Of a stretch of 64,000 nt of DNA, positions 26,331 to 51,728 are shown piece by piece. Each line of letters begins with the position of its first letter. Position 1 is the first letter of the stretch. The DNA comes from Lingula anatina (taxonomy: Eukaryota; Animalia; Brachiopoda), in assembly GCA_051362555.1 (NCBI GenBank), contig CM120648.1:18038587-18102586 (forward strand), read 5' to 3'. A program made the translations under genes and the position numbers. The notes under the pieces were generated by a model. It did not search any database. It saw only the letters and a list, made by a program, of their open reading frames with translations, and had not been told where the DNA came from.

Positions 26331-26344
26331 AAAAGGGGGGAGAG
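26331..26344 (+). promoter_or_regulatory. polypurine tract
   Basis: AAAAGGGGGGAGAG abutting the 3' LTR. Confidence 0.9.
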
Positions 26345-29863: not shown

Positions 29864-30915
29864 CACTGTTAAAGGGTGTATTTCACATGTACAGTATATG
29901 TACACAAAATATTGTTTTAAAACGCCTTAGGTTGTACATGTACTGTGCATAGTAATTGTACAATAATTTTACAGTGGCTGATTTCTTTACTACATGTACA
30001 GTAGCTTTTGTAATCAACGTGTTCAAATAAACAAAAAATAGTTTAGTTTTAGTACAATTTTGTTCAATTTTCTTTTTTTTTAACCGAAAAACGTCATTAG
30101 TTGACACCATCCCGGACCCAGAACCAGAGATTTTCTACAGTAAGTCGTAACTTAATCAGTTGAATTGTTTCCAAATATGTAGGAAACTTGTTTATACACA
30201 TGAATGACACAAAACACACACACACAGAGAAATAATAAAAATTAAACGTTCACTCGAGAAAAATGTTGGACCTTAAGTATGATCTCAAAATCATGGCGAT
30301 AGTCGATCTTTACATCTACATGTATTTAACATACTTGTACAGTGTATCCACTCATTTTCTACCGTGTGATACTATCGAAAAAACTTGCCAAATTAAATCA
30401 TTATAAAACCATAATAATGGCCGTAGCGGGATCTCGCGGCTTCGCAGCCTAATGCTAAAGACACAGTTCACTCCAGGGAAATGACAACGCTGGAGAAGGC
30501 GGAGCCAATTTGAAGGCGTGTCATTGGAAGAGTTATGTACTGGGAGGGTGATTTAGTAAAAGGGCAAGTCACTGGAAAAGGGTCAGTCGCTTAAATAAGC
30601 AATTCACAGGAGGGATGAGGTGATTGCACATTTAGTTTTCATCATTTGTCTGTTTTATTATTGTGACATTCATTTTAGCTGAGCCTATAGTGTCTGAGTT
30701 GTAGAACATGTCATTTGCTTGATATGTTAATATCTGTGTCACTGTGATTGGATTATATGAGGAATCACAAGTTTTGAATAATTTCAAAGCAGTTCTTAAC
30801 AAATAAGAACTGTGCTTACAGTGCAGTTTATATAAAAGGGAGTATGTTTTCTATAGGTAAATGATGCATCAGGTTAAAATTATTGTCAGATGGTACCTTT
30901 TATTTCCTTTTACAG

Positions 30916-31017
30916 GTTGGTGTGTGGGTTTGGCGGTGCTCTGTTCATTTATTTCCACAGGAAAATTATCCACTTTATACGAAAACAGAGGAAATTGTCC
31001 TCCTTTCTCCAGAAGAA
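30916..31017 (+). CDS. CLCN2: ClC exon A
   Basis: tacag|...|gtaagt; LVCGFGGALFIYFHRKIIHFIRKQRKLSSFLQK. Confidence 0.93.
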
Positions 31018-31474
31018 GTAAGTACCAGTTACAACAGGAGTCATCCACTGTATGTGACTTACAAGAGAGTAATTATATGACGGTGTATAGTACAAGTAAG
31101 TAGCAGTTACAACAGGAGTCTTCCACTGTATGTGACTTACAAGAGAGTAATTATATGACGGTGTATAGTACAAGTAAGTACCAGTTACAACAGGAGTCAT
31201 CCACTGTATGTGACTTATAAGAGAGTAATTATATGACGGTGTATAGTACAAGTAAGTACCAGTTACAACAGGAGTCATCCACTGTATGTGACTTACAAGA
31301 GAGTAATTATATGACGGTGTATAGTACAAGTAAGTAGCAGTTACAGCAGGAGTCATCCACTGTATGTGACTTACAAGAGAGTAATTATATGACGGTGTAT
31401 AGTACAAGTAAGTAGCAGTTACAACAGGAGTCATCCACTGTATGTGACTTACAAGAGAGTAATTTTATGACAGT
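31016..31474 (+). repeat. 78-bp minisatellite (~5.8 copies) containing the exon A donor
   Basis: AA|GTAAGT recurs every 78 bp from 31018. Confidence 0.95.
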
Positions 31475-31784
31475 GCAACTGATTTGCACATGTATGTCAC
31501 ATACAATAGACCACAAGTGTTTGTAGAGCTGCCTCAAGCATTTATAGGATGATTACACTTGTATTTTGCTTACAACACAGTGAAGCATGTTAATAAAGAT
31601 GAGCAAGCAATTATTCCATTGTTGCTAACAGTAAATGTTTTTATGATTGTTATCACATAAGGAAATGTTTGGGATAATTATGTGAAAAGGACATAGTGAA
31701 GATACCTTTTATTAGCATTCAGTTTATTCCCATTTTTTGTGTGATATAATGTGTTGTAAATATGATGTGTTTTATTTATTTCAG

Positions 31785-31875
31785 TCGATTCATCTATCCA
31801 ACTGTGATACATGTAACATTTTTGATATCCACTCTATCCTTCCCCCTGGGGCTGGGGCAGTATACAGCTGGAATG
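31785..31875 (+). CDS. CLCN2: ClC exon B
   Basis: ttcag|...|gtaggt; RFIYPTVIHVTFLISTLSFPLGLGQYTAGM. Confidence 0.9.
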
Positions 31876-32013
31876 GTAGGTATCATGGGGGGTGGGGGTG
31901 TTATCCTTTCCTCTGGGGTTTGGGCAGTATACAGCTGGAATGGTACGTATCATGGGGGTGGGGGTGTTATCCTTTCCTCTGGGGCTGGGGCAGTATACAG
32001 CTGGAATGGTATG
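31835..32013 (+). repeat. 66/67-bp repeat (3 copies of exon B 3' end and donor)
   Basis: GCAGTATACAGCTGGAATG|GT at 31876, 31943, 32009. Confidence 0.93.
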
Positions 32014-32229
32014 TTTTCTAGAAACATTTTTCACAAGACTAGGAAGCAAACATATGATTAGTTTGTCCGATTTACCAACACAACTTACCAAACACCTCTT
32101 TCCTGCATTAGTAATAGATACATCAAAATGTACAGAGATTATACTGCTGTGGGCATAAGTCACTTTCCACAACTCATGACAGTCCATCTGTCCATTCAGT
32201 TCTCATGGAGAAATTTAATGTACTTTCAG

Positions 32230-32388
32230 TTAACTCACCGAGAAGCTGTGAATGAGTTGTTTAGTAACTTCACATGGTCCACGAGGGAAGCAGAGAACTT
32301 AGATCTGGACCAACTAGAGGTCCTCAGTCACTGGAATCACCCGGACACCAGCGTCTACGTCACAATGACTTTGTTTATTATTATACAG
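32230..32388 (+). CDS. CLCN2: ClC exon C
   Basis: ttcag|...|gtgaga; LTHREAVNELFSNFTW...VYVTMTLFIIIQ. Confidence 0.92.
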
Positions 32389-32574
32389 GTGAGATTTACT
32401 CTTTGTATGAGAAGACCAAACATCAACCCCAGTCTAATTGTATGAAGATTTTAAGAGTTGGCAATTTGAAAATTTGTCTGTTATAACCTAACTTTAAAAT
32501 ATGCCATGTGTCTCTGTAATACTTAAATTTTTTGGTATATATAAATAATTTTGAATGGTTGTGCACTGATTTCA

Positions 32575-32981
32575 GTTGTACAGAGTGATCTCACACAAAC
32601 AGTTTACTTATAATAATAATGGATTACATTTGTTTTCAGTTTGTGTGATCTTTCAGGTTCAGTAAGGTACAGTGTAATAATGGAATGTTGTATAGAGTGA
32701 TCTCACACAAACAGTTTACTTATAATAATAATGGATTACATTTGTTTTCAGTTTGTGTGATCTTTCAGGTTCAGTAAGGTACAGTGTAATAATGGAATGT
32801 TGTACAGAGTGATCTCACACAAACAGTTTACTTATAATAATAATGGATTACATTTGTTTCTAGTTTATGTGATCTTTCAGGTTCAGTAAGGTACAGTGTA
32901 ATAATGGAATGTTGTATAGAGTGATCTCACACAAACAGTTAACTTGTAATAATAATGGATTACATTTGTTTCCAGTTTGTG
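32575..32981 (+). repeat. 112-bp minisatellite (~3.6 copies) containing the exon D acceptor
   Basis: tttgtttyyag|TTTRTG with the acceptor G at 32639, 32751, 32863, 32975. Confidence 0.93.
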
Positions 32982-33045
32982 ACAGCTGCTTTGGCTGGTT
33001 CTCTCCCCATTCCTGCTGGAGTGTTCATTCCTGTCTTCACTATAG
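32976..33045 (+). CDS. CLCN2: ClC exon D (GxFxP selectivity motif)
   Basis: FVTAALAGSLPIPAGVFIPVFTIG; gtaagt donor. Confidence 0.95.
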
Positions 33046-33287
33046 GTAAGTTGTGTCATCATTTCACCACTTACTGTTGCCTTGTCAACTATTCCCCATG
33101 CTGCAGACTGCGCAATTACATATTAAAGGAAAGCTTTTTTAATAACATTTCATTTTGTTTTGTTGTGTTTGTTAAAATTGATAACATGACTGTTCAGCAG
33201 TAGGTATGAGCAGTTTGAGTTCAGGTACATTGATAATTCTTTATTCATTTGAATAATTTTCATCATCCTTGGATAATCTACTAATTA

Positions 33288-34740
33288 ATTGTACCACCAG
33301 CGTTAGCGCTGGCGGTACACATGGTTTTAGTCCCGTCCGGTCCATTCCGCCGGCTCCTGCGGCTCCGCCGCCATGTTACCGTTACCCCTTCTCCTCCTAG
33401 ACGGTAAGGGCCCCCATACCCATCTCTTAGATTTAGGTCACCTATAATCTCAACTCGTTCCACGTAAAATTTGGGCTTTGTCGGTATTGGGGTCTAGGTG
33501 TGGCACTCATTGCAATGCACCCTTGTCCAAAAATGGCAAAATTAAATGCTAATTATCTACCCTATGGAAGGAATTATGGGAAAAATTTCTACAGACGGCT
33601 TTCCAAAAGTCATATGTGTAGATTTCAAATATGCCCTTGGATTTGACCTTTGACCTTTATTTCAAGGTCAAACGGGCAAAATTTTCAAAAAAATGAATTT
33701 TTTTACGAAAAAAAAAATTTATTTGCGCTGTTATTCAGACACCACACAGACTTAACCAATAATATTATTGGAAGATGTTACCCTTCAGGTCATCTTTCAT
33801 ATCCGTAAATTTGGGGTCAATCGGTGCATTTTCACGGGAGTAGCGGCCATAAGATACCGAAACTGAAAACTGTCTCTAATTCAGGAACCGTTAATGCTAG
33901 AGACCCATTCTTTTTTGCATTTTGTAGAGCATGTAAAGCCCAACACTGAAGGTGGTCTCCGTTTTTTTGTATTCCATACGGTTTTCGAGTTACGCTGTAT
34001 CAAAAAGTACATATTGGTGGTGAAAGCAAAATGTGCAGTACGGTAATGGATAATAAATTTTGAACTCTGGAAAAATAAAACATAAGGCTTGGCAAAGCAG
34101 ACAACTTGTGGTAAAAAATGACATTATTTCATCAAATTTGAACTTCTGGAACTTCAGAGCACCTCCCATTTCAAGAATTTTGACCAAAATGACCTTTTCT
34201 TTATTTTAATTAATTTTTTCTGTAGGAAATTTATGGCACATTAAGGTAACTCCGAAATTATAACATTTAGTCCCTTATATCTCCAAAACTGGCAGAGATA
34301 GGTCCATAGTTGCTATTGAAGTTGAATAGGAAGTCATATACTGGCAATCTAAGTGTGACCTTGAAATTGACCTTTGACCTACTTATAATCATGAACTGAA
34401 CTCTGCTAATTTCTTTCTCTTTTAACTCCAAACCTGGCAGAGATAGGTCCATAGTTACTATTGAAGTTGAATAGGAAGTCATATACTGGCAATTTACTGT
34501 GACCTTGAAATTGACCTTTGACCTACCTTACGATGAACTTAACTTTGATTGTACCATTTTAAGTTATATATATTTTTTGCGTATTTTGAAAATTCTTGTT
34601 GATTGCATTTTTATACCTTGTCAAGCATAAGACTGGTGGCTGTGTCCCTTATTTTGTGTATGTGGGGGTCTATACGAATGCGCTTGCTCCAGCTGGTGGT
34701 ACAATATTCGGAGGCGGTATCGCCTCTCTGATCCTCTAGT
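33288..34740 (+). mobile_element. non-autonomous Helentron/HINE-like element, copy 1
   Basis: Subterminal IR TTGTACCACCAGC / GCTGGTGGTACAA, 3' hairpin GAGGCGGTATCGCCTC, CTAGT end, T-rich site, ~2 internal 146-bp units. Confidence 0.8.
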
Positions 34741-34986
34741 TATATATGGGTGGTGAATTTAAAAATGATGCAAATGAAAGAGAATTTTAATAATTATGCT
34801 GTTCCATGAAAAGTTGAACTTGAAAAGCACTGACCTTGACCTACAGAAACCTGTCCACTCTGGTCTCACAGTGTCACACCTGAAGATCGTGACAGCTGTT
34901 GTTGTGGCTGAATGCCCATTTTCCTTCACTATGCTGCCATCTTCAGATTAAAATTAGCTAAGAGAATGTTCCTTAATTATTCCCAG

Positions 34987-35097
34987 GTGCTGCCTTTGGT
35001 CGTCTTGTAGGAGAGTGTTTGGCTACGTGGTTCCCCAGTGGAGTGAGGATGGGGGATCAGGTGTCTCCTATAGTCCCTGGAGGATATGCTGTAGTAG
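34987..35097 (+). CDS. CLCN2: ClC exon E
   Basis: cccag|...|gtgagt; [37 protein letters not shown]. Confidence 0.93.
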
Positions 35098-36673
35098 GTG
35101 AGTGTATGACTACATGGTATCCCAGTGAAGTCAGGATGGGAGAGCAGGTGTCTCCTATAGTACCTGGAGGATATGCTGTAGTAGGTAAGTGTATGACTAC
35201 ATGGTATCCCAGTGAAGTCAGGATGGGAGAGCAGGTGTCTCCTATAGTACCCGGAGGATATGCTGTAGTAGGTGAGTGTATGACTACATGATATCCCAGT
35301 GAAGTCAGGATGGGAGAGCAGGTGTCTCCTATAGTACCTGGAGGATATGCTGTAGTAGGTAAGTGTATGACTACATGGTATCCCAGTGAAGTCAGGATGG
35401 GAGAGCAGGTGTCTCCTATAGTACCTGGAGGATATGCTGTAGTAGGTAAGTGTATGACTATGTACATGGTATCCCAGTGAAGTCAGGATGGGAGAGCAGG
35501 TGTCTCCTATAGTACCTGGAGGATATGCTGTAGTAGGTAAGTGTATGACTACATGGTATCCCAGTGAAGTCAGGATGGGAGAGCAGGTGTCTCCTATAGT
35601 ACCTGGAGGATATGCTGTAGTAGGTAAGTGTATGACTACATGGTATCCCAGTGAAGTCAGGATGGGAGAGCAGGTGTCTCCTATAGTCCCTGAAGGATAT
35701 GCTGTAGTAGGTAAGTGTATGACTACATGGTATCCCAGTGAAGTCAGGATGGGAGAGCAGGTGTCTCCTATAGTCCCTGGAGGATATGCTGTAGTAGGTA
35801 AGTGTATGACTACATGGTATCCCAGTGAAGTCAGGATGGGAGAGCAGGTGTCCCCTATAGTACCTGGAGGATATGCTGTAGTAGGTGAGTGTATGACTAC
35901 ATGGTATCCCAGTGAACTCAGGATGGGAGAGCAGGTGTCTCCTATAGTATCTGGAGGATATGCTGTAGTAGGTGAGTGTATGACTACATGGTATCCCAGT
36001 GAAGTCAGGATGGGAGAGCAGGTGTCTCCTATATTACCTGGAGGATATGCTGTAGTAGGTGAGTGTATGACTACATGGTATCCCAGTGAAGTCAGGATGG
36101 GAGAGCAGGTGTCCCCTATAGTACCTGGAGGATATGCTGTAGTAGGTGAGTGTATGACTACATGGTATCCCAGTGAAGTCAGGATGGGAGAGCAGGTGTC
36201 TCCTATAGTACCTGGAGGATATGCTGTAGTAGGTGAGTGTATGACTACATGGTATCCCAGTGAAGTCAGGATGGGAGAGCAGGTGTCTCCTATAGTATCT
36301 GGAGGATATGCTGTAGTAGGTGAGTGTATGACTACATGGTATCCCAGTGAAGTCAGGATGGGAGAGCAGGTGTCCCCTATAGTACCTGGAGGATATGCTG
36401 TAGTAGGTGAGTGTATGACTACATGGTATCCCAGTGAAGTCAGGATGGGAGAGCAGGTGTCTCCTATAGTACCTGGAGGATATGCTGTAGTAGGTAAGTG
36501 TATGACTACATGGTATCCCAGTGAAGCCCGGATGGGAGAGCAGGTGTCTCCTATAGTACCTGGAGGATATGCTGTAGTAGGTAAGTGTATGACTACATGG
36601 TATCCCAGTGAAGTCAGGATGGGAGAGCAGGTGTCTCCTATAGTACCTGGAGGATATGCTGTAGTAGGTAATA
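35011..36673 (+). repeat. 87-bp minisatellite (19 copies) derived from exon E
   Basis: GCTGTAGTAG|GT from 35098 to 36668 = 18 x 87 + one 4-bp insertion. Confidence 0.97.
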
Positions 36674-37015
36674 TCATGTAACTCAGCAGTACTCTCTATC
36701 ACTGTTAAGATTCATATTAGAGTCCTCTACAAACCCATGATAGTAACTACAGGTACGAAAATTGATCACTTCAATTATACTTGATCTAGTGTGTCAGGTA
36801 TTTTAAATATTTGAAAAAAAAATGAAAATTATTATTCCAAAATGAGTTTTTCAGTACTTTATTTATTAATAAGTCAGCTGTACATGTATCTTAATGCAGC
36901 AGCTATTGCTCTTTAAGTTGGCTGATATCGCACTGGAAAAAAATGTCAGTAGTATGTTCCTTTCAATGTATTTTTGCTTACATAATCATAAAATATGCGT
37001 GTATCATTTGTGTAG

Positions 37016-37113
37016 GAGCTGCTGCTTTGGCAGGAAGTGTTACCCACACCATTTCCACCTCTGTGATAGTGTTTGAGCTGACAGGACAGATATCCCACAT
37101 TCTACCTGCTGTG
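37016..37113 (+). CDS. CLCN2: ClC exon F
   Basis: [33 protein letters not shown]; gtaaga donor. Confidence 0.95.
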
Positions 37114-37644
37114 GTAAGACAACTGATTGTTTGATAAATGTAATAGTGGTTGAGCTAACGGGACAGATATCCCACATTCTACCTGCTGTGGTAAGACAAC
37201 TGATTGTTTGATAAATGTGATAGTGGTTGAGATAACGGGACAGATATCCCACATTCTACCTGCTGTGGTAAGACAACTGATTGTTTGATAAATGTAATAG
37301 TGTTTGAGCTAACGGGACAGATATCCCACATTCTACCTGCTGTGGTAAGACAACTGATTGTTTGATAAATGTGATAGCGTTTGAGCTGACAGGACAGATA
37401 TCCCACATTCTACCTGCTGTGGTAAGACAACTGATTGTTCGATAAATGTAATAGTGGTTGAGCTAACGGGACAGATATCCCACATTCTACCTGCTGTGGT
37501 AAGACAACTGATTGTTTGATAAATGTGATAGTATTTGAGATAACGGGACAGATATCCCACATTCTACCTGCTGTGGTAAGACAACTGATTGTTTGATAAA
37601 TGTGATAGCGTTTGAGCTAACGGGACAGATATCCCACATTCTAC
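37062..37644 (+). repeat. 77-bp minisatellite (~7.6 copies) spanning the exon F donor
   Basis: 52 exonic + 25 intronic nt; donors at 37114, 37191, 37268, 37345, 37422, 37499, 37576. Confidence 0.96.
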
Positions 37645-37748
37645 TGGCTGACAAGATTGTTGGTCTTTGAAAAATGTTAATATATTTAATCAATTTTATA
37701 AAACCAACACTTATTTTACATTTTCTATATATCATTTGTATACTCCAG

Positions 37749-37864
37749 ATAGCAGTGTTGATAGCCAATGCAGTCGCCCACAGCCTTCAGCCGTCCATTT
37801 ATGACAGCATCATCCAGATCAAAAGGCTGCCTTACCTGCCCGATATAATCCCCACCAAGTCCAG
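37749..37864 (+). CDS. CLCN2: ClC exon G (central Tyr, end of membrane domain)
   Basis: [38 protein letters not shown]. Confidence 0.95.
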
Positions 37865-38382
37865 GTAATATGTGATATCATCCCCACCAAGTCCAGGTAA
37901 TATGTGATATCATCCCCACCAAGTCCAGGTAATATGTGATATCATCCCCACCAAGTCAAGGTAATATGTGATATCACCCCTACCAAGTCAAGGTAATATG
38001 TGATATCATCCCCACCAAGTCCAGGTAATATGTGATATAATCCCCTCCAAGTCCAGGTAATATGTGATATAATCCCCTCCAAGTCCAGGTAATATGTGAT
38101 ATAATCCCCACCAAGTCCAGGTAATATGTGATATAATCCCCACCAAGTCCAGGTAATATGTGATATAATCCCCACCAAGTCCAGGTAATATGTGATATAA
38201 TCCCCTCCAAGTCCAGGTAATATGTGATATCATCCCCACCAAGTCCAGGTAATAAGTGATATAATCCCCACCAAGTCCAGGTAATATGTGATATAATCCC
38301 CTCCAAGTCCAGGTAATATGTGATATCATCCCCACCAAGTCCAGGTAATAACTGATATAATCCCCACCAAGTCCAGGTAATA
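37842..38382 (+). repeat. 32-bp minisatellite (17 copies) spanning the exon G donor
   Basis: 23 exonic + 9 intronic nt; donors 37865 to 38377 = 16 x 32. Confidence 0.96.
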
Positions 38383-38484
38383 CTTTCAGTACAAAACATT
38401 TTTCTGTACGTGAAATATTCCATGTCAAATGTGTTATCATATCCTTCTTGCAGCCCATATTATGTACTTGAGAAGGACTTCATG

Positions 38485-38533
<49 letters not shown>

Positions 38534-38550
38534 GTCTGGTGTCTTTGCAG

Positions 38551-38684
38551 CACTTACAATGTGTTTGTGGAGGACTTCATGATCCGTGACATCAGGTTTA
38601 TCAGCTATATCGCCACATACCAGGATGTGAAGAATCTGTTGGAGACATCCAAGTTAAGAACATTCCCATTGGTGGATGCCCCAG
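38551..38684 (+). CDS. CLCN2: ClC exon H (CBS1)
   Basis: TYNVFVEDFMIRDIRFI...RTFPLVDAP. Confidence 0.93.
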
Positions 38685-39222
38685 GTAGGGTAAACACACA
38701 CATGTGTAATGGCACTGGAGAAAGTTTGATTTTCTTCCTACAAATCAAACAGAGGCATGTCTGAAATCCCAATCAGGATGTGTTTTTATCCAGGGATGGA
38801 ACCATGGTTCGTGGAAGCAGTGTTGAACCAGTCAGATTTTTAAAAATCAAAATATATGTGTGAAAACTCCTCCTCTAACCCTTATTTTGTCCTGTCTGTT
38901 ATACCTTGAACATAGCACTGGCATATCAGGATCTCTGTGAGATTCCAAGACATGGGATTTATTAACTGAACATTGTACACTGTTATGTAGTCTTCTTACT
39001 TAGTGTTATATTCTAGTATGTCAGTTTTACATGATATTATCAGGTTTGAAAGCACCTTTCCTCTGATATTCCGATAAACTTTTTCACCAAACAGTTTATA
39101 ACAGTTATATATGAGACATTTATTTTTAGTATTTAGACCACTAACATATTGTTATATGTATACAGTATAATGCTATGACATTCAGAAGACAATCATATCC
39201 ATTATGTTGTGTATATTTCCAG

Positions 39223-39551
39223 AGTCCATGATTCTCCTTGGGTCTGTACAGAGACTGGAGCTGGAACTGTTACTGGAGGCTCAGCTTGGACGACAGCGCC
39301 GCCTGGCAGCAGTGGAAGAAGCATTACATAAACGGCAACAGGAAGAGGAGGAGAGGAAGAGAGCCAAGGAACAACTGGAGAAGAGGGCGTCCCAAGGCGA
39401 TACCGAGGGGACGCGACCAATGGCAGCTTGCAGTGGAGATATGTTGAACGCTGTGAAGGTCCACCGCCAGCCATCGGCCAGGTTTACAGTGACCCCTGCA
39501 GCCAGCAAGGTGGACAGTGGCGGACATGTCCAGTTGAAGCTGGACTCCACG
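39223..39551 (+). CDS. CLCN2: ClC exon I (end of CBS1, linker)
   Basis: ESMILLGSVQRLEL...QLKLDST; phase matches exon H. Confidence 0.9.
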
Positions 39552-39867
39552 GTAAACAGTGTGTGTGTGTTTGTGGATTTGAATGATAATCATAGGGACC
39601 ATTCCACAGATGTTTGGAGCAATCTATCTCCCAGGGGAGCCTCACTTAATTACTATCGACTTAACTGGCTTAAATGTCTTTCAGGCCTAGTAAAGCTGTT
39701 AGGGTGTAATTATCTTTACCCCCTAGCTTATTTGGTGGGCTTGACAGACATTTAAGCCAGTTATTTCATAGCAATTTATTGAGACTTCCCTGGGAGTTAG
39801 ACCGAACCAGATGGTGTGATAATATATGTGAAATGATATTACTACATTATCTCTGCCATCATTCCAG

Positions 39868-40069
39868 CCACCAGAACAAACAGCTAATGGAGACACGCTG
39901 AAACCGCACAAGTACACCAAGGCACCACAGAGAGGGATATTAAAGAAGAGTCCCCGTCCCAGCCCCTGGGCTAGTCCCAGGGCCAGTCCTAAAGGAAGTC
40001 CTCAGTCTTCACCTCGCTCTAGTCCACCAGGGTCTGCCAAGACAAGCCCCACACCCAGCCCACAGTTAG
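39868..40069 (+). CDS. CLCN2: ClC exon J (SP-rich linker)
   Basis: Open in phase, PPEQTANG...RGILKKSPRPSPWASPRASPKGSP...; weak gttagc donor. Confidence 0.75.
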
Positions 40070-40317
40070 GTTAGCCAGCTCTGGGCTACTACACTGGTCT
40101 GAAAGTTAACTTTTGATGTATTAAGAATATGGCTAAGTTAAAGGACTGTCTAGAAAATATTCCAGTTTTTATTAAAATCACACTGCAATTTCTCAAAAAA
40201 AAAAAAAAAAGAAGGGTATAGTGTATATAATTTGGTATAAAAAAAACGAATGATCATGAATAATTATTCAAAATTACTGAATTAGAGTAATGTGATTATT
40301 AAGTAATCTTTACATTA

Positions 40318-41283
40318 GGCCACACTTTTTTATTTTTATGGATGACATCCTCTGGGTACCCCAAAATCGGTGCGAGAGGGCGAAAAAAAAAAAAAAAACG
40401 GTCCAAAAGAAAAAGAAAAAAAAATACTGCTTAAGTAGAGGAATGCTGTCAGTGCACAGCTGGAAACACAAATTTTACCACAGAAACACGTATCAAACTA
40501 ATAATATGTCTTTATCCATGCTCTCAAAATATTAAAGCATTGTGAATACTTCGTAGAAATGTAAAAAAAAAAAGTCATGAATAGATATACTTCTTATCAC
40601 AAAATCTATTAAGGTTATTTCATGCATTTTGTTGGTATAGCAATCAATAAAACAAACATCAAACAAACAGTGTGTCTTTATTTGTATTCTCAGAATATTA
40701 AAGCATTTTGAACACTTCACAGAAAAGTTTCACAGATATGCTTAATAGGCCTACTACCAAATCTATTAAAGGTCATTTCGGACGATGCCATTTTGTCTAC
40801 TTCGACTCACACGGCCAAACTGTCAGGTGGCCCGTCCGACCTTCAGCCCACCAAATACCTCGACGCCCTTGTCGACCCTTTTTTCGCTACAGAAAACCTG
40901 GTAGCCTATGTGCTGCTTTGTACAGAATGTCACTGAAATTTTTCGGGCTATAATCGCTGGCGGCTGACAGCCTTTCGCACAATTGTAAAAAGGTGATATC
41001 TCCATGCCAAATATCAATGGCATACCAATCCAAAACGACGGCACCCGTTCTCTTTATGACTTTAATTGTCGTGTAATTTGAAAGTAATCCTAGAGATGAA
41101 CTTAACGGCAAAGCGGTCACATTTCCACGTGGCGATAATACGCATGCGCAGAAAACTCATTTCCGACGTTTGCGACAACCGACTTCGTTGGGGGCTGGGG
41201 GGGGGATTTTTTTTTTTTTCGGAGAACGGGCGAAAATCGGTGCGCGCGCAGGATGTCATCCATAAAAATAAAAAAGTGTGGCC
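40318..41283. mobile_element. non-autonomous DNA transposon, PIF/Harbinger- or Zator-like
   Basis: 34-bp TIR GGCCACACTTTTTTATTTTTATGGATGACATCCT, 3-bp TSD TTA. Confidence 0.88.
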
Positions 41284-41464
41284 TTAGCTTGATGCAAGAT
41301 GAGGTTAAAAATTGCTTACATTTAAAAAGATAATTTTAACCCTCTATAACAGGTACCTATATAGTATATACACCCTTAGGTTTATTTACCATCACACTAT
41401 TGTTTTCCATGTACCTTTCTCTGTTTATTTTGATAATGAAGTTTGATTAATTTTGATTTTACAG

Positions 41465-41559
41465 AAAAGAAATTCAGCATTGGGCTGGCAAAGATTTTCA
41501 AATCTCGAAGTAAAGAAAGTATCGCGGACAGTACAACTTCCGAAGATGATGAAGCTCAG
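41465..41559 (+). CDS. CLCN2: ClC exon K
   Basis: tacag|...|gtaact, phase fits J; EKKFSIGLAKIFKSRSKESIADSTTSEDDEAQ. Confidence 0.7.
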
Positions 41560-41713
41560 GTAACTATGGCAACAAACTGATAAACAGCATGGAATATTTT
41601 AGTTTAAAAGTCAATATTTACAGGGTTCTGTATTCTACTTATGAAGGATTAGCAGTGTGAGGACTCAAGTATATCTAATTATATTATATATAGCATCGTG
41701 AATATCATAAGAG

Positions 41714-41759
<46 letters not shown>

Positions 41760-41991
41760 CATCATGAGGGTAGTGGCTAAGTTTACATTTATCTATTCAT
41801 CTGTGTTTAATGTTATTATTTTTTATTTATTTATATCTTTTGCATGTGCTGTAAGTCTCTGCATACATGAAGTACCAGTTTGAAGTGAATAGTTAATAAT
41901 TGAAGATGTATAATATATATTGTAATAGAGTGACCATGATGTAAGGTTTCAGAGTGTGATACTGATATTTGGGTCATCCAGACACCATTAA

Positions 41992-42555
41992 CAACATACC
42001 TGTATCTACCCAGGTTTGTCAACTGTTTGCCCTCTGAGTCAGTACAACAGTTAATGTGTGGTATTACACCATTAAAACTACCTGAAGGTCAACATACCTG
42101 TATCTACCCAGGTTTGTCAACTGTTTGCCCTCTGAGTCAGTACAACAGTTAATGTGTGGTATTACACCATTAAAACTACCTGAAGGTCAACATACCTGTA
42201 TCTACCCAGGCTTGTCAACTGTTTGCCCTCTGAGTCAGTACAACAGTTAGTGTGTGGTATTACACCATTAAAACTACCTGAAGGTCAACATACCTGTATC
42301 TACCCAGGCTTGTCAACTGTTTGCCCTCTGAGTCAGTACAACAGTTAGTGTGGTATTACACCATTAAAACTACCTGAAGGTCAACATACCAGTATCTACC
42401 CAGGCTTGTCAACTGTTTGCCCTCTGAGTCAGTACAACAGTTAGTGTGTGGTATTACACCATTAAAACTACCTGAAGGTCAACATACCTGTATCTACCCA
42501 GGCTTGTCAACTGTTTGTTCTCTGAGCCAGTACAACACTTAGTGTGTGGTATTAA
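41992..42555. repeat. 98-bp intronic minisatellite (~5.7 copies)
   Basis: CAACATACCTGTATCTACCCAGG recurs every ~98 bp. Confidence 0.93.
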
Positions 42556-42727
42556 GCCTGGGCTAACAGCCAGCTGCCGTATGCACTGCACACTTGGTGT
42601 TATATACAGCATATAGTTTCATTCTCATGGTCTATCTGATTGGGTGAAATGTTGATATCAACTGTAAGTGAAATGGTCTGGGTATTATTTGAATGTCTGC
42701 TTTTATATTATATTTCACTATTGACAG

Positions 42728-42805
42728 GATTCCTCCCTATATGAGTTGGACCCCGAGTCTGACAGGTTCTTACACAGGCATGGCAAACATGCCCATGTAA
42801 AGCTG
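42728..42805 (+). CDS. CLCN2: ClC exon L
   Basis: gacag|...|gtaaga, 78 nt phase 0; DSSLYELDPESDRFLHRHGKHAHVKL. Confidence 0.65.
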
Positions 42806-43130
42806 GTAAGAAGATGGCTGCTGCTTAACAAACCACTTTTTATTTGATCATGTGACTTGTTATCTAGTCATGTGACCACAGCTTTTGACCACATGTTTTG
42901 CCATTGTTTCACAACTTTTGACTGCAGTGTGTAGGTAATTTAATTTTTGTAGCAGATTGCTGTGAGTGTGTTTTATCATAACCCATTTTATGTTTGTAGT
43001 TTCAAGCAAGACTGTTGCCATTGTGTGGCTTAGTTTTAGTTTTCTTATATGGTAAAATTTTCAGAGCTCCCCTTGTGTCTGTAAGTATAGCTTGATGATT
43101 GCAGTTGTCAAAGTGTGAAGATTTTTACTT

Positions 43131-45253
43131 ATTGTACCACCAGCGTTAGCCGGACGGCTACCGTTACCGCTTCTCCTCCTAGACGGTAAGGGCCCCCGTA
43201 CCTATCTCTTGGATTTAGGTCACCTATAATCTCAACTCGTTCCACGTAAAATTTGGGCTTTGTCGGTTTTGGGGTCTAGGTGTGGCACTCATTGCAATGC
43301 ACCCTTGTCCAAAAATGGCAAAATTAAATGCTAATTATCTACCCTACGGAAGGAATTATGGGAAAAATTTCTACAGACAGCTTTCCAAAAGTCATATGTG
43401 TAGATTTCAAATATGCCCTTGGATTTGACCTTTGACCTTTATTTCAAGGTCAAACGGGCCAAAATTTTCAAAAAAATGATTTTTTTTACGAAAAAAAAAT
43501 TATTTGCCCTGTTATTCAGACACCACACAGACTTAACCAATAATATTATTGGAAAGTGTTACCCTTCAGGTCATCTTTCATCTCCGTGAATTAGGGGGTC
43601 AATCGGTGCATTTTCACGGGAGTAGCGGCCATAAGATACCGAAACTGAAAACTGTCTCTAATTCGGGAACCGTTAATGCTAGAGACCCATTCTTTTTTGC
43701 ATTTTGTAGAGCATGTAAAGCCCAACAGTGGAAGTGGTCTCGGTTTTTTTGTATTCCATACAGTTTTCGAGTTACACTGTATCAAAAAGTACATATTGGT
43801 GGTGAAAGCAAAATGTGCAGTACGGTAATGGATAATAAATTTTGAACTCCGGAAAAATAAAACATAAGGCTTGGCAAAGCAGACAACTTGTGGTCAAAAA
43901 TGACATTATTTCATCAAATTTGAACATCTGGAACTTCAGAGCACCTCCCATTTCAAGAATTTTGACCAAAATGACCTTTTCTTTATTTTAATTAATTTTT
44001 TCTGTAGGAAATTTATGGCACATTATGGTAACTCCAAAATTATAACATTTAGCCCCTTATATCTCCAAAACTGGCAGAGATAGGTCCATAGTTACTATTG
44101 AAGTTGAATAGGAAGTCATATACTGGCAATCTAAATGTGACCTTGAAATTGACCTTTGACCTACTTTTCACCATGAACTGAACTTTGCAAATTTTGCTTC
44201 CCTTTTATCTCCAAAACTGGCAGAGATAGGTCCATAGTTACTATTGAAGTTGAATAGGAAGTCATATACTGGCAATCTAAATGTGACCTTAAAATTGACC
44301 TTTGACCTACTTTTCACCATGAACTGAACTTTGCAAATTTTGCTTCCCTTTTATCTCCAAAACTGGCAGAGATAGGTCCATAGTTACTATTGAAGTTGAA
44401 TAGGAAGGCATATACTGGCAATCTAAATGTGACCTTGAAATTGACCTCTGACCTACTTTTCACCATGAACTGAACTTTGCAAATTTTGCTTCCCTTTTAT
44501 CTCCAAAACTGGCAGAGATAGGTCCATAGTTACTATTGAAGTTGAATAGGAAGTCATATACTGGCAATCTAAATGTGACCTTAAGATTGACCTTTGACCT
44601 ACTTTTCACCATGAACTGAACTTTGCAAATTTTGCTTCCCCTTTATCTCCAAAACTGGCAGAGATAGGTCCATAGTTACTATTGAAGTTGAATAGGAAGT
44701 CATATACTGGCAATCTAAATGTGACCTTAAAATTGACCTTTGACCTACTTTTCACCATGAACTGAACTTTGCAAATTTTGCTTCCCTTTTATCTCCAAAA
44801 CTGGCAGAGATAGGTCCATAGTTACTATTGAGCTTGAATATGAAGTCATATACTGGCAATCTAAATGTGACCTTGAAATTGACCTTTGACCTACTTTTCA
44901 CCATGAACTGAACTTTGCAAATTTTGGTTCCCTTTTATCTCCAAAACTGGCAGAGATAGGTCCATAGTTACTATTGAAGTTGAATAAGAAGTCATATACT
45001 GGCAATTTACTGTGACCTTGAAATTGACATTTGACCTACCTTTCGATGAACTTAACTTTGATTGTACCATTTTTAGTCATATATGTTTTTTGCATATTTT
45101 GAAAATTCTTGTTGATTGCATTTTTACAGCTTGTCAAGCACAAGACTGGTGGCTGTGTCCCTTATTTTGTGTATGTGGGGGTTTATACGAATGCGCTTGC
45201 TCCAGCTGGTGGTACAATATTCGGAGGCGGTATCGCCTCTCTGATCCTCTAGT
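43131..45253 (+). mobile_element. non-autonomous Helentron/HINE-like element, copy 2
   Basis: Same family as 33288-34740 with ~7 internal 146-bp units (44061-45040). Confidence 0.82.
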
Positions 45254-46744
45254 TTTCTGTTTGGATTTTGCTAAGAATAATATTGGAATGCTGTTATTAT
45301 GCTGTGATCATTTTTGAAGATGAGACAGAAAGGCATGACTACAGGTAATGTTATAATAGATAGACTTAGGAAACTATGGAGAAATACACCTTTACTGCTG
45401 ATTGAAAAGAACAGAACCCAATTGTCAAAATGTAATGCAAAGTACATTCTGATCATTTTGTAGGGGTGTTCTAACAAAAATACAGTAGCATCTGCACCAA
45501 AAGCTGCTTCTGTTTTGATATTTTTTTCTGCTCGCAGTGAAAACCAATATTTTTTGTCTACAAAATCATTTTCATTTGGATTGAAACATATATTCTTGAG
45601 ACTCTGACTGCTTGGATTGATATACAGTTTTATTTTAAAAAAATTGTATTATTATTTTCTTTCTTGTAATCAATTAATGGTCTTCACATCCAAAAGAACT
45701 TCAGAGCAACCCCAGATGAGACACTATAAAAACCTGGACTGGTTTTCTGACTGTTCATGTAGTTCAAACTCCATAAATATGTCTGGCATTTTAATAAACG
45801 ACACATGCAGATATCAAAGAATCATCAAAAGTTGGAGCACATTTACTCTCCCTAAAGGTTGCCGCCTTAGTGCGGAGTATCAATTTGTGAAATTGTCCTC
45901 ACTTGTTGTTAACTGGCTGTGGTAATTGAGTTGTGTTATCTTGTAAACTGTTGTGAGGGGAATAATGCAATGGCTGCTGCCCAGAAACCTATTAAATATA
46001 TAGATAAACACTGATTTATAACATTCTCAACAGATTATATTGTGCAAACAATTCTGTTGGGAAGTATAAAATGGCATATGAACAAAAACCAGTTGAAAAT
46101 GAAGATGAACTTGCACTGATGTTGACAGAGGTCAGCTGCTTTCTGCTTTCTCTATGCACCAGCTTATAATATTACAAGTTTTACATATTTGGGGAAGTTC
46201 CTTAACTTACTGCCACTCTCCCCCCTCCCTGCACAATGGTTATGTTCATCTGAAATCTACTAATAAGACTATAACTACTAACTACTAACTATACTTTCCT
46301 GTGTACAGCATAAATACCTTGCATGCTTAGGCCTGGTGGCCTAGTATCTTATGATTTATGGTGGTTCATCCATTGTCATGCTTTAATAATGTGTCTTTAT
46401 GTTTACTAACATCTTTATTATTTGATTTCAGTTGTCAAGAAACACCCTTCCTCCTTACATTCCCTTTAAATTCTTAAGTACAGGGATGGGAACATCCTCT
46501 TTTCTTGCATGCTCTTCAAATTTTGAATTACAGGGATGGAAATTTCCCAAGTTTTATGCAGAGAAGACATGTTATAAGAATAGATGTCAGTGTAGATAAC
46601 TAGAGACAGGTTCCTTCCTGTCCTTACATTGTTCCCATCCCTGTACATGATATGTAGCAGTAAAAACACCATTAAACTAGCACTTTGATGTGCAGCATAT
46701 TTAAGACACCATTCCCAGAGCCTATCACACTAACTTTGGATCGG

Positions 46745-46908
46745 TCCAGGGGGATTCCCACTAAATTGCTATTAAATTAAGCAGCTTAGATGTCTCGCAC
46801 ACCCACTGATGCTGTTAGGGGGTAATAAACTCATTCAGCAGCTTTAGCAGGTGTGCCAGACATCTAAGCTGCTTAAACTGAAAGCAATTTAGGGAGAAAC
46901 CCCTTGGA
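46745..46908. repeat. imperfect foldback / possible MITE
   Basis: CTAAATTGCT / AGCAATTTAG and TTAAGCAGCTTAGATGTCT / AGACATCTAAGCTGCTTAA arms. Confidence 0.75.
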
Positions 46909-47475
46909 GATAGTTCGATCTTCTAAGATCAATCTAGGCATGGTAACCCAGTCAACCTTATCAGTCAACTCTGTTATGTGCATGTGCAGCATATTTAATA
47001 CCCTATCAGTCAACAATGTACCTTGTACCTTGATAGCATGTGCATGATATCCATACCCTTATATTTGCAGATCACATTATTGTCAAATACACAATTTTCC
47101 AAATATTTATTTTAAAGCAAGGCTTCAAGTGATGGATTGTCATATGCACATACATGTATTTATTGTTGATGTTTAAGGATGCCCAGTATGTAGAACATTA
47201 TTAACAGTGGATTTCTATTAATATTGGGATGAAAGTTACATTGCACTTGCTGTTTCTTAGATAGTTTAATTTGCAGTCAACAATTTTAGGTATTACACTC
47301 TCATAGATGTAATCAACATTGATACAACTTATCTGTTCGCCAGAATTTTTTTTTCTCAAGAAGTTAGGTTTCTTGGCTACTGAAATGAGAGTGTAAACCT
47401 AGTATTTGTTGTCATGGTAATTCTTTCTGTTGCATGTTTTTCTTCATTTTCCTTTCCCTGCATTTTCTCCACTAG

Positions 47476-47565
47476 AGGTCTCTTCTAGACGATTTCCCCA
47501 AGCAATATACTGACTCTGTGCGAAGTGGCAAAAGTGTTCAATTTAATGTCTTGGACTTACAAGAG
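47476..47565 (+). CDS. CLCN2: putative ClC cassette exon M
   Basis: Long pyrimidine tract, ctag|...|gtaagt, 90 nt open in phase 0; no recognisable homology. Confidence 0.5.
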
Positions 47566-48975
47566 GTAAGTTTAATGTCATAGGTTTACTAGAGAAAATG
47601 TTAAAGTGATGAACGTGCAGGTGAGTCCTGAACCATGCTTTCATAAACAAAATAAACAGAGGCTGGCAGATCTGCTGCACTGTGGAAATTATACTTTTGA
47701 AATACTGCCACTACCCATGTCAGTAATTATCAGTGATGTTTTTAAAAGTAATAAATATTGTTATGTGTCAGTTACTGCATCCCAGAGCTAATAATATGAT
47801 ATCATGGAGGATAAAGGGGTCCAGTCAGGGTCAGGGGGAGATCAGAGGTGAAGTGAAGGTCAGGGCAAGGTCAGAGGTGAAGTAAAGGTCAGGGAGAGGT
47901 CAGAGGTAAAGGTCAAGAAATTGTCATTTGTCCATCACAAGATCAGTCTTGGGTCAAGAGACCCAGAAATGTGCCAAAAGAAGTTATATTGAAATACAGT
48001 CATTTGACAATTGGGATGTAGCACAGTTGTTTCTTTATGTATAATATTATTTATTAATTATGATTTTATCGATATGAATATTATTTCTTTAATTTTTTGG
48101 AATTTTATAGGCTTACCAAATATTTCATAGTCGAAGGCTAATTTTAAGGTTGCTTTTTAGAAGTGACTTAGTAGACATGCTTTTCTTGCTAGTTTATACA
48201 TGTATATATTTTAGATGTCTAGCTTTCCTATGGAATATTGTATCACTTGTGGTGATACTCTAGTAGTATTTACTATTATACCCCAGACACTGGTTTAGGG
48301 GTGTATGGACTACAGGTTGGCTGTCTGTTAAGTTTGTTCATTAAAATTGCTTGACTTGGTGAAAACATCACATAACAGGTCAGCAGATTGTATTACTGAA
48401 ATTTTCAGACTTTTTTAAGATGAAGAAAAGGTAAATGATGTTAGTGAATTTTATGGATATTTCTTTGTATTACGGTAAGTTGATTTCGGAAATGCATCTA
48501 GTAAGGTGTGATGTGTGGTATATTTGATATGTTTATCATGTGTGTGTTGTGTTTAGAATTTATTTTGTCATGATTGTAGAACTTGCAGTGATGAGAGCCT
48601 TAGTGTCTTCACTAGAACAGCTTGCAGTGAACTGACACATGGTTACATACTATATTGACTTTAGAGAGTATCTAGAACCAGTTTCAGAAAATGACTTAAA
48701 AGTTTGCTTTTCTTTAGTCTATATGGCATTCAACAGAAATTCTGAATTAAAGACGAGACTTTTAACTTAGCTGAAATCACCCTACCTGGTTAACAATAGA
48801 ATGTTATTTTAAAACCCGATATTTTATTTGAAAGGTATAGGTGATGAGATCAATAACCTTTATAAAGATGTTGCGTAGTTTATTTGTATTAAAATAGCAC
48901 ATTTCTATACTTCAAAAATAACTGATTTCAAAAAGTTATCATTCTGTCATTGGATTATTTCTCTTCATTTGCAAG

Positions 48976-49011
48976 CCTCCACAGAGAGTGATAGATTTGA
49001 GTGAAGAAGAG
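48976..49011 (+). CDS. CLCN2: ClC exon N (36-nt microexon)
   Basis: PPQRVIDLSEEE resembles the invertebrate ClC-2 pre-CBS2 motif (RVIDMS); AAG acceptor, gtaaag donor. Confidence 0.75.
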
Positions 49012-50022
49012 GTAAAGTACCAGTAGCATGATGTGTGCTGTGTTCATTTATAAACTGACATCAGAGAAGACTTACATCCGCTGTGTTATGTTAGAACAAT
49101 TAAGTAGTTTTTCTTCAATCAACAGCTAATATTTGGCAGTGAATATTGCCTCATTCCATGATGTAGATACTCTTGAGAGACAGTGAAATATTGGAGGTAA
49201 TTATTAGCTGCCAGTATTCACTGGTCATTGAAGAAAAATGTCTTTATTCTTAAACTGACATATTGTTAATGTTGTTTAGTTCAGTCATACCCAGCCAAAG
49301 AATTTTAAACCAAGTTCAGAAGAAGGCAGATGAAGGCGGTTGTTTTGACAGAAGCTTCAAAACCAGAAAGAAAGTGACCAAGTGTATAATAGGCCAATTT
49401 ATCTGCTGCTTCTTTAAAAATATATGTTACATTTTGTTTACTTATTGATGTCAGGGGCAGATAATAAGGGTTGAAATGTCAAATAATTGACATAAAGTGT
49501 GACCTATACCATCCCATCCCCAGGTACTCATAGTAGTTAAGATGTGAATTATGGTTTTATCCTAGATATTCAATATTAGTACTTGAACCTAACTCACACT
49601 GCTTCATTTTGACAGCCTTAAGTCATGCCAAAAACTATAAGTATAATAGTATAAATATTTCACAACTGTCACTATGAATGAAAATCATAATATTTAATCA
49701 ATAACAAAAATAAAAAAATAAGTCTTGAGATTCAATTTTTTAAAAAACTTACATAAAAGTGTATCACATTCTATTGAATTACAACTTTATAGGCTAAGAA
49801 TTGGTTAAATTCCTTCTTGGATCACTATAAGGCTTTTGCAGTTAAGATGGAAGGCTTTATTATATGAAGCAGGGTCTGGCTCTGTAGATATTAATGACAA
49901 CCTGTTTTATTGCTCTCTGTAGATGTAAAATGACACAGTTGGTATTACACTGGGTCTGGGTCTGTAAATTCCATTGTTGGTCAGTTTTATTTCTTCCAGT
50001 AGTTATAAAATAGCACAGCTCT

Positions 50023-50285
50023 CAGTGGCAGATATTAAGAGGGGTGTCAGGGGGGTCCTGACCCCTCCCCTCCCCTTTGATTACTGAGAAAAAAATCACA
50101 CCTATAATTCCTCTTGAAATTAGAATTTTGTGTAGCTTAATCATAGTTTTAAACTATACCAGATGTCACCATTCACCAAATAAAATACCAAAATATCAGC
50201 GGGCCCCGAACCCCACTTCAGCAGGGGAAGGGGAGACTTCGATTCCATGGACCACCCCCTTCAAATAATTCTGGCTCCGCCCTTG
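50023..50285 (+). mobile_element. hAT-like MITE with 5-bp TSD
   Basis: CAGTGGCAGAT...CTCCGCCCTTG flanked by GCTCT on both sides; same family as 14543. Confidence 0.7.
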
Positions 50286-50836
50286 GCTCTTATTGCACAG
50301 TAATGCACTGCTTGTAGTGCTCTAGATATGGTTAGTCTCTTCCTCCATGTAGTGTTGCCATTTTGTATAGCCTGATTAAAGCTCATCTTATATGACAATG
50401 GCAATGAACAGTTTCCTAAATTTGAATGATTCTTGATAAGTTTAGTCTTGTTCTGCTTACTGCTAACATTAGATTGGATTGCTGTCTTAATTTTGGAGAG
50501 CACTGTAGATGGTCATGATAGTGTCATTGTTTTGACATGGTGTGACATTTGTTTGACAGTGTTGTGACAATGTATTGATGATAGTGTGATGTTGTTTGGG
50601 TGTAGTGAGACATCTTTACAAGGTTTTTTTTTTTAACATAGTGTGACATTGTTTTGACAGTGGTGTGGTATATTTGGACATAGTGTGACATTGTTTTGAT
50701 GTTAGTGTGATGTTGTTTGGATGTTTTGACATTTTTACAGTTTTTTTTCTCGGACATGGTGTGACATTTTTTGACAGTGGTGAAATATTTTTGACAGTAG
50801 TGTGACATTGTTTTGACACTGATGTTTATTCTGTAG

Positions 50837-50941
50837 CAAAGACAGTGGGAGGAAGAGCAGTTGAAATGTCAGGTGAAGTTTGAAGAGGCTCAGATAGACC
50901 CCGCCCCCTTCCAGCTAGTGGAGAGGACTTCCTTACAGAAA
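50837..50941 (+). CDS. CLCN2: ClC exon O (CBS2)
   Basis: QRQWEEEQL...[17 protein letters not shown]. Confidence 0.95.
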
Positions 50942-51274
50942 GTAAGATGAAAAAAAACAGAACATTTAGAAAATGCATGGCTGGTTTTCAAGAATGTTCA
51001 TTTTATCCGCATCTCTGTCTTTTACATAAATAAAACTTTCCAAAATTCAATAATGACTGGGGAATTGAAAAAAGAGAGGATCATTTAATCAAAATAAAAT
51101 TTAGCATCAATGCAGAGGAATCTGTCGAAGTGTTTCAGCTTATTCTTGGAAGAAATGGATCCATCATAATGGCATGGGAGAACTGAATTGTACATGTATT
51201 CTTTACAGTACCTAAGTAGTTAAGACTTCACTGTTTCACTTCTTTCTCACTATGTGGTTGTGGCTATGTTTCAG

Positions 51275-51361
51275 GTTCACTCTCTGTTCTCACTGCTAGG
51301 CCTGAACCATGCCTATGTCACCAATACAGGGAGATTGGTAGGAGTGGTTGCACTTAAAGAG
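51275..51361 (+). CDS. CLCN2: ClC exon P (CBS2)
   Basis: VHSLFSLLGLNHAYVTNTGRLVGVVALKE. Confidence 0.95.
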
Positions 51362-51519
51362 GTAAACACACATCAACATGTTACTATCATAACTATATAA
51401 CACTGTAAACTTGAACCATGCCTATGTCACCAATACAGGGAGGTTGGTAGGAGTGGTTGCACTTAAAGAGGTAAACACACATCAACATGTTACTATCATA
51501 ACTATTTAACACTGTAAAC
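51303..51519 (+). repeat. 109-bp tandem duplication spanning the exon P donor
   Basis: 59 exonic + 50 intronic nt; donors at 51362 and 51471. Confidence 0.95.
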
Positions 51520-51728
51520 ATCAGAATTGCTGCTATTTGGCACTAGAAAAGTAAATGCTTAATGTGTTTAAAAGTTGTTACAGTATTACTCAGCCTTTGT
51601 TAAATCTTGTGTGACCCAAGTCTTGTGTAAGGTGTTACACTCTCAAAGTATAGGTCAGAGAATGATGGAACAAGTTTAACAAATCACAGCATGGGGTAAT
51701 GCAATCAGCCTGCATTTTGTGCTTGCAG

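What the first reader, a model, noticed from the sequence alone, without database searches (positions are those of the whole stretch)
30916..51519. Splice sites of one chloride-channel gene repeatedly amplified into independent minisatellites
Seen: seven splice junctions each sit inside their own tandem array with unrelated units: exon A donor 78 bp x~6, B donor 66/67 x3, D acceptor 112 x4, E donor 87 x19, F donor 77 x7, G donor 32 x17, P donor 109 x2. Six of seven consecutive exons (A-G) are affected. In each case the copy next to the exon body keeps the reading frame and the rest fall in the intron, giving about 50 decoy splice sites. Using a decoy gives an immediate stop or frameshift (AAG TAA at A, TTT GTG TGA at D, GTT TGA at F, AGG TAA at G), except for two E donors. 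Inference: either a mutational process that nucleates at exon-intron boundaries (e.g. co-transcriptional splicing or R-loop-linked breaks repaired by repeated template switching), or a high background duplication rate filtered by selection. Copy number could also tune channel expression through poison splicing and NMD. Isolated cases are known in animals; I do not know of this density being described as a system.
Basis: partly seen in the sequence, partly recalled or inferred. Interest (0 to 1): 0.88.

Follow-up and report, generated by a model that had tools for sequence, protein, structure and literature searches.

The report
Mirage minisatellites in brachiopod chloride-channel gene
Seven exon edges of a lamp-shell (Lingula-like) chloride-channel gene are each copied in tandem into the neighbouring intron, giving 51 spare splice signals, but this is a repeat type already described in lancelets, the few RNA reads checked point to use of the normal sites, and the repeats are likely harmless by-products of DNA duplication.

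Summary
It is not a new system. Such arrays are the amphioxus "mirages" (PMC3087553, PMC3902484); human F7 and ABCA7 VNTRs are single-site cases, and this scan reported the same pattern in other genomes (unchecked notes; none found for Lingula). The intact copy beside the exon is automatic geometry. RNA reads from other individuals support the authentic site at A (10 of 10), D (4 of 4) and B (19 reads; 3 placed at a decoy look mis-mapped); depth is low and E, F, G, P were not tested. Arrays B and G leave traces in other data, so they are not artefacts. Seven of 11-12 arrays span a splice site against about 2 expected (P about 0.001, but post hoc). Poison-splicing regulation is unsupported.

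The parts
30916..51849 (+). C-terminal two-thirds of a ClC-2-type chloride channel gene, 17 exons A-Q, 673 aa open frame; the part matching residues 1-322 of the full protein is absent from the window
30916..31017 (+). exon A (first ClC exon in the window)
   Evidence: A-B junction in 10 RNA reads
31016..31475 (+). array A, 78 bp x5.9, unit = 2 exon bases + first 76 intron bases; 5 decoy donors
31785..31875 (+). exon B; carries a 6-nt in-frame insertion near 31808 absent from P0002 and from 14 of 14 RNA reads
31835..32011 (+). array B, 66/67 bp x2.7, 41 exon bases per unit; 2 decoy donors; head-to-tail junction also in another DNA run and in protein model P0003
32230..32388 (+). exon C (no array)
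32575..32981 (+). array D, 112 bp x3.6, ends 6 bases into exon D; 3 decoy acceptors
32976..33045 (+). exon D
   Evidence: C-D junction in 4 RNA reads
34987..35097 (+). exon E
35007..36669 (+). array E, 87 bp x19.1, about 83 exon bases + 4 intron bases; 18 decoy donors, first two in frame and open; copies 97% alike to each other, 83-89% to the exon
37016..37113 (+). exon F (weak Pfam Voltage_CLC hit, E 3.5e-05, below the curated cut-off)
37062..37644 (+). array F, 77 bp x7.6, 52 exon bases; 6 decoy donors
37749..37864 (+). exon G
37842..38382 (+). array G, 32 bp x16.9, 23 exon bases; 16 decoy donors; 8-residue junction-frame peptide found in model P0002
41992..42554 (+). intronic array, 98 bp x5.8, ends 174 bases before exon L; no splice site
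50521..50825 (+). degenerate intronic array (21/42/121 bp periods) ending 12 bases before exon O; no splice site
51275..51361 (+). exon P
51303..51519 (+). array P, 109 bp x2, 59 exon + 50 intron bases, 98% identical; 1 decoy donor
52143..53289 (+). three further arrays (58 x4.8, 81 x2.1, 80 x3.0) downstream of the stop codon, no splice sites known
30400..30600 (.). inferred left edge of the ClC segment: CpG o/e falls from 0.9-1.2 to 0-0.5 near 30590; CpG-rich, promoter-like stretch just upstream
   Evidence: sequence

Best explanation
The seven arrays are mirage-type minisatellites: each holds tandem copies of its own splice site, likely born by a local DNA duplication across the exon edge, likely grown by unequal exchange or slippage, and likely tolerated because the spliceosome keeps to the site next to the exon. 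Shown: arrays, unrelated units, one intact junction beside each exon, authentic sites in the reads at A and D and most reads at B. Follows from geometry: any tandem duplication across a splice site leaves the exon whole and puts the extra copies in the intron. Inferred from human F7 work: the most upstream donor wins even against equal or stronger copies, which would also explain six donor arrays against one acceptor array. Inferred and untested: the excess at exon edges is a DNA-level effect, because exons are the stretches that stay alike between haplotypes (repair and crossover would start there and slip where likeness ends) and an exon-anchored array is harder to delete. The arrays differ in age (83-89% exon-to-copy identity at E, 98% at P), so the process is recurrent. 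This window's copy of the gene may itself be a 5'-truncated duplicate, but arrays B and G also appear in an assembly whose models carry the N-terminal half.
For: Array anatomy. RNA reads: exon A body joined to B in 10 of 10 loose ends; C joined to the last D acceptor in 4 of 4; B-C joint at the first donor in 7 (X15) + 8 (X18) reads plus 4 loose ends; no RNA depth over 31887-31960 in any of 3 runs. Decoy donors match the consensus as well as or better than the true one in 46 of 49 cases, so position and not strength decides, as in F7 (abstract). Mirages reported not to disturb splicing in amphioxus. Same size class of arrays without splice sites in and after the gene. Edge excess 7 vs about 2, and 9 arrays within 50 bases of an exon edge vs 3.2-4.1 expected. 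Lingula heterozygosity 1.6%. A 52-bp x2.7 array spans the exon-H-equivalent donor in 1 of 4 fetched ClC loci (L004, another organism).
Against: 3 X15 reads were placed at the third B donor; I read them as mis-placed (35 bases on the short side, X15's exon carries the two alleles of copy 3, no depth on the intervening bases), but that is an interpretation. Read depth is tiny, comes from other individuals (one 90-95% alike) whose arrays were not seen, and NMD would hide decoy products. E, F, G and P, which hold 41 of 51 decoys, were not tested. The cause of the edge excess is not tested at all, and the excess rests on one hand-picked gene. No clear microhomology at most junctions.
Confidence: 0.6

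Rival explanations
1. No real edge bias: minisatellites arise evenly and often in gene bodies, selection removes exonic ones, and this gene is a chance extreme picked out by the scan.
For: Gene stretch is array-rich overall, 14 vs 5. With about 34,000 genes, a P of 0.001 would be met by tens of genes if others are as array-rich. Exons H-O have no splice-site array.
Against: 7 observed vs 2.1 expected even after rejecting wholly exonic placements and removing transposons; the longest intron (4,670 bases) holds no deep-intron array except one inside a transposon.
Confidence: 0.2
2. Duplications are nucleated at splice sites by a transcription- or splicing-coupled lesion (R-loop, paused polymerase) repaired by repeated template switching.
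For: Arrays sit in the transcribed, CpG-poor stretch; the A and D array edges fall within 2 and 6 bases of the splice site.
Against: In B, E, F, G and P the breakpoints lie 23-83 bases inside the exon and up to 50 inside the intron; arrays of the same kind occur away from splice sites; no intron-less, RNA-templated junction is seen.
Confidence: 0.12
3. Copy number tunes channel level through decoy use and NMD, as for the human ABCA7 VNTR.
For: ABCA7 intron-18 VNTR starts with the donor GT, like array A, and one-unit retention gives an out-of-frame transcript. 49 of 51 decoys give early stops. 3 reads placed at a B decoy.
Against: Stops are what any read-through into an AT-rich intron gives. 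No read covers array-specific intron bases at B. Units are unrelated and of different age. This copy lacks its 5' half and has an insertion not seen in RNA.
Confidence: 0.05
4. The arrays are assembly artefacts.
For: Copy numbers were not checked in long reads; only B was laid against DNA data; the missing 5' half could be a misjoin.
Against: Copies carry patterned differences (E copies 97% alike). A 97-base contig of run X2 spans the B head-to-tail junction at depth 511 vs 234 on exon C. Models P0003 and P0002 contain junction-frame peptides of B (18 aa match) and G (8 aa match).
Confidence: 0.03

Closest known systems
Amphioxus 'mirage' minisatellites (Adh3, globins BflGb6/BflGb9, troponin C, PGBD5); PMC3087553 and PMC3902484, passages read; the original Adh3 paper was not held and is known to me only through these citations
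   Same: Tandem copies of an exon-intron boundary, donor or acceptor side, units of 10-160 bp, copies homogenised, splice signals kept, normal splicing reported undisturbed.
   Different: Different phylum (brachiopod); seven sites in one gene. Length variation between haplotypes and somatic instability were not tested here.
Human F7 intron-7 37-bp VNTR (PMC1557585, abstract and outline read)
   Same: First unit spans the exon-intron boundary; identical pseudo-donors follow and stay silent; most upstream donor chosen.
   Different: Single site in a mammal; the mechanism was shown with minigenes there and is only inferred here.
Human ABCA7 intron-18 25-bp VNTR (PMC5954066, passages read)
   Same: Unit starts at the donor GT, like array A; use of the next donor gives a premature stop.
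   Different: There decoy use and a length effect were measured; here no convincing decoy use was seen at low depth.
ClC-2-type chloride channel, Lingula anatina models P0002 and P0003
   Same: 94% identical over exon C; mostly 90-100% on the other matched exons.
   Different: Window copy lacks residues 1-322 of P0002, has a 2-residue insertion in exon B and several substitutions where both models agree.

Membership tests
Mirage minisatellites | Minisatellite-size unit in tandem that spans an exon-intron boundary | tested here: met
   7 arrays; A and D include only 2 and 6 exon bases
Mirage minisatellites | Extra copies keep GT/AG signals and lie in the intron | tested here: met
   51 in-register decoys
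Mirage minisatellites | Normal splicing not disturbed | tested here: inconclusive
   Authentic sites in 10/10 (A), 4/4 (D), 19 reads at B with 3 disputed; low depth, other individuals; E, F, G, P untested
Mirage minisatellites | Concerted evolution among copies | tested here: met
   E copies 97% to each other, 83-89% to the exon; not evident in younger arrays
Mirage minisatellites | Copy-number variation between haplotypes or tissues | not testable with these tools
   No long reads or second haplotype held
Splicing-regulatory VNTR (ABCA7 type) | Decoy use measurable and dependent on array length | tested here: inconclusive
   No read over array-specific bases at B; no genotype-matched RNA
Intact ClC-2 gene | Full channel coding sequence including the N-terminal half | tested here: not met
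   P0002 residues 1-322 have no hit in the window (best E 6.3); exons over 30.9 kb upstream not excluded

The most novel reading that the evidence does not exclude
In highly heterozygous marine invertebrates, small tandem duplications arise preferentially where conserved exon sequence gives way to divergent intron, so mirages are a genome-wide mutational bias and not scattered curiosities; they can rebuild splice donors, as at exon E, where the donor in place today appears to be a hybrid made by the duplication junction itself. This Lingula gene, with 7 of 33 splice sites hit, would be a clear single-gene example.
Probability: 0.25. Interest if true: 0.62.

Novelty: new member of a known kind. 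Interest (0 to 1): 0.3.

Why it matters
Modest. It extends mirages to brachiopods (no paper found) with a dense example. It offers a natural panel of 51 equal-strength decoys to test first-come donor choice in an invertebrate. It shows a practical hazard: two public Lingula ClC-2 models carry array-derived peptides and lack exons around the arrays. If a genome-wide exon-edge bias were confirmed, it would bear on how splice sites and introns are renewed; I found no such test.

Tried and rejected
No whole genome is held, so no genome-wide enrichment test and no search for the gene's 5' half. No RNA holder was listed among indexed runs; this is no evidence on expression. RNA run X12 gave only 2 intronic reads. 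Reads across the upstream edge of exon A were not obtained, so the truncation rests on tblastn and CpG profile only. Metagenome scan gave 4 ClC loci: L001-L003 show no splice-spanning array (L001 and L003 match in long unbroken blocks), L004 has one; too few for statistics. The original Adh3 mirage paper was not held. The earthworm metallothionein paper concerns intronic repeats, not boundary arrays. Rejected: units derived from one transposon or one ancestral repeat (no cross-matches); the 146-bp array at 44054-45060 as a mirage (it lies inside a transposon present twice); 'frame kept next to the exon' and 'immediate stops' as signs of design (both follow from geometry and intron composition). 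Supplements of PMC4595640 (repeat tables) were not read and could mention tandem repeats.
Full report
Observation. TRF finds all seven arrays at the stated places and sizes. I set exon edges by hand: 17 exons from 30916 to 51849, all with AG/GT edges, join into one open frame of 673 residues. Counting sites in register gives 6, 3, 4, 19, 7, 17 and 2 for A, B, D, E, F, G, P: 51 decoys, of which 49 give an early stop and two (E +87, +174) stay open. The units match neither each other nor other places in the window. Two of its striking points are automatic: a tandem duplication across a splice site always leaves the exon-side junction whole, and the stops are simply the first met on reading into the intron. 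Arrays A and D contain only 2 and 6 exon bases.

Identity. Exon C finds two proteins among 5 candidates, both Lingula anatina ClC-2 models, 94% identical; most other matched exons are 90-100% identical. Pfam gave sub-threshold Voltage_CLC and CBS hits on 2 of 8 exon pieces. The window is thus from Lingula or a close relative.

Residues 1-322 of model P0002 have no match anywhere in the window (best E 6.3), though 30.9 kb lie upstream and the gene's own introns are 316-4,670 bases. CpG depletion typical of the gene body starts abruptly near 30590. Exon B carries a 6-base insertion absent from P0002 and from all 14 RNA reads covering it (4 of 4 in X15, 10 of 10 in X18); the copy also has substitutions where both models agree. 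This suggests a 5'-truncated duplicate or broken allele under relaxed selection; a very long intron or a misjoin is not excluded, and no reads across this edge were obtained. There is no stop or frameshift.

Are the arrays real? For B: a 97-base contig of DNA run X2 spans the head-to-tail junction at depth 511, against 234 on exon C, and model P0003 contains an 18-residue stretch matching the junction frame. For G: model P0002 contains an 8-residue junction-frame match. Both models carry the N-terminal half, so these arrays belong to the locus and not just to this copy. An 18-residue match of array E to P0003 reflects a shared exon allele, not a junction. A, D, F and P left no such trace, and no copy number was verified.

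Splicing. One stretch (31480-32570) was laid on 3 RNA runs and 1 DNA run; about 6-25% of each RNA run was read. B-C joint at the first donor: 7 reads in X15 and 8 in X18, plus 4 loose ends in X18. Three X15 reads were placed at the third donor; they have at most 35 bases on that side, X15's exon carries the two alleles of copy 3 (31842, 31845), and no run has depth over 31887-31960, so I read them as ordinary mRNA mis-placed; 4 further X15 loose ends of about 12 bases are uninformative. Loose ends show exon A body joined to B in 10 of 10 and exon C joined to the last D acceptor in 4 of 4. X12 gave 2 intronic reads only. Reads include mates, come from other animals, and cannot exclude decoy use of 10-30% or products removed by NMD. 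E, F, G and P were not tested. Decoy donors match the consensus as well as or better than the true donor in 46 of 49 cases, so position must decide.

Chance. Collapsing arrays to founder units, 7 of 12 (or 11 without transposons) span a splice site against 1.8-2.1 expected; P 0.0005-0.0012, also when wholly exonic placements are rejected. Nine lie within 50 bases of an exon edge against 3.2-4.1 expected. The gene stretch holds 14 arrays of score >=100 in 23.4 kb against 5 in 40.6 kb outside (P 0.001, limits chosen by me). The window was picked for this feature and Lingula has about 34,000 genes, so these values suggest but do not prove a bias.

Mechanism. Most likely each array began as a local duplication and grew by unequal exchange or slippage (established minisatellite behaviour, from my own knowledge). 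Ages differ: E copies are 97% alike among themselves but 83-89% to the exon, P is 98%. At E the listing suggests a unit of 83 exon bases plus the first four intron bases, with a 6-of-8 base likeness at the breakpoints; joining them makes a consensus donor at the exon edge, whereas the last copy keeps a weaker donor followed by unique intron. The donor in place today would thus be a product of the duplication (inferred). Tolerance is explained by first-come donor choice, shown for human F7 (abstract only), which would also favour donor over acceptor arrays (6 to 1 here). For the edge excess I favour a DNA-level cause: exons stay alike between haplotypes in a genome of 1.6% heterozygosity, and exon-anchored arrays are harder to delete. 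This is untested. Splicing-coupled nucleation is less likely since five of seven breakpoints lie 23-83 bases inside exons and similar arrays occur away from splice sites.

Known relatives. PMC3087553 (passages; references) describes tandem duplications of exon-intron boundaries, termed mirages, in amphioxus Adh3 and globins, on both donor and acceptor sides, not disturbing splicing, and suggests they are general in cephalochordates; PMC3902484 (one passage) adds troponin C and PGBD5. ABCA7 (passages) shows the poison-splicing variant in a human gene. Searches for a Lingula report or a genome-wide test found none (listings; PMC4595640 passages: no 'minisatellite' in the main text). Earlier notes of this scan report the same pattern in annelid, abalone, sea urchin and elephant shark windows (22 findings in at least 9 genomes; unchecked; none for Lingula); they gave me the F7 lead. 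One of 4 ClC loci fetched from metagenome contigs (L004) has a 52-bp x2.7 array on the donor equivalent to exon H.

Verdict. A real, dense, clean example of a known repeat type in a new phylum, probably neutral, on a gene copy that may be truncated. The open question worth testing is a genome-wide exon-edge bias. Interest 0.3.

Noticed in passing
window 30400-30916: The ClC gene starts mid-protein; CpG profile shifts near 30590 next to a CpG-rich promoter-like stretch. Possible duplication, inversion or assembly breakpoint.
   Followed up: partly
window 31808, 32284, 32287, 32365: Changes in the window's copy (6-base insertion; residue changes in exon C) that differ from the RNA reads covering them and from the public models; may mark relaxed selection.
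   Followed up: partly
window 31842, 31845 and exon E near 35057: Array copies carry alleles that are exonic in other individuals (X15 reads; model P0003), so arrays preserve or exchange exon alleles.
   Followed up: partly
window 19773-26744: LTR retrotransposon with 400-bp LTRs 99.75% identical (recent), gag/pol-like reading frames, pol apparently cut short; sits between exon-like pieces of a minus-strand gene.
   Followed up: no
window 1-8450: Second retrotransposon-like pol region, interrupted between about 1380 and 5770 by other sequence (read by eye).
   Followed up: no
window 33292-34741 and 43130-45254: Two 95%-identical copies of one transposon-like element in introns of the gene; the second has an internal 146-bp x6.9 expansion.
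   Followed up: partly
window 40317-41287: Intronic element with terminal inverted repeats.
   Followed up: no
window 15766-17525: Exon-like pieces of another plus-strand gene whose first exon seems to shift frame; TRF lists no array of period 20 or more over it.
   Followed up: no
P0002, P0003: Both public Lingula ClC-2 models lack exons near the arrays and include array-derived peptides; P0003 repeats the H-J block.
   Followed up: partly
L004 2096-2237: 52-bp x2.7 array spanning a ClC exon donor in another organism: an independent mirage at a site that has none in this window.
   Followed up: partly
window 42728-42805 and 48976-49011: Candidate exons L and N keep the frame but are absent from the public models; may be alternative exons or my over-call.
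   Followed up: no
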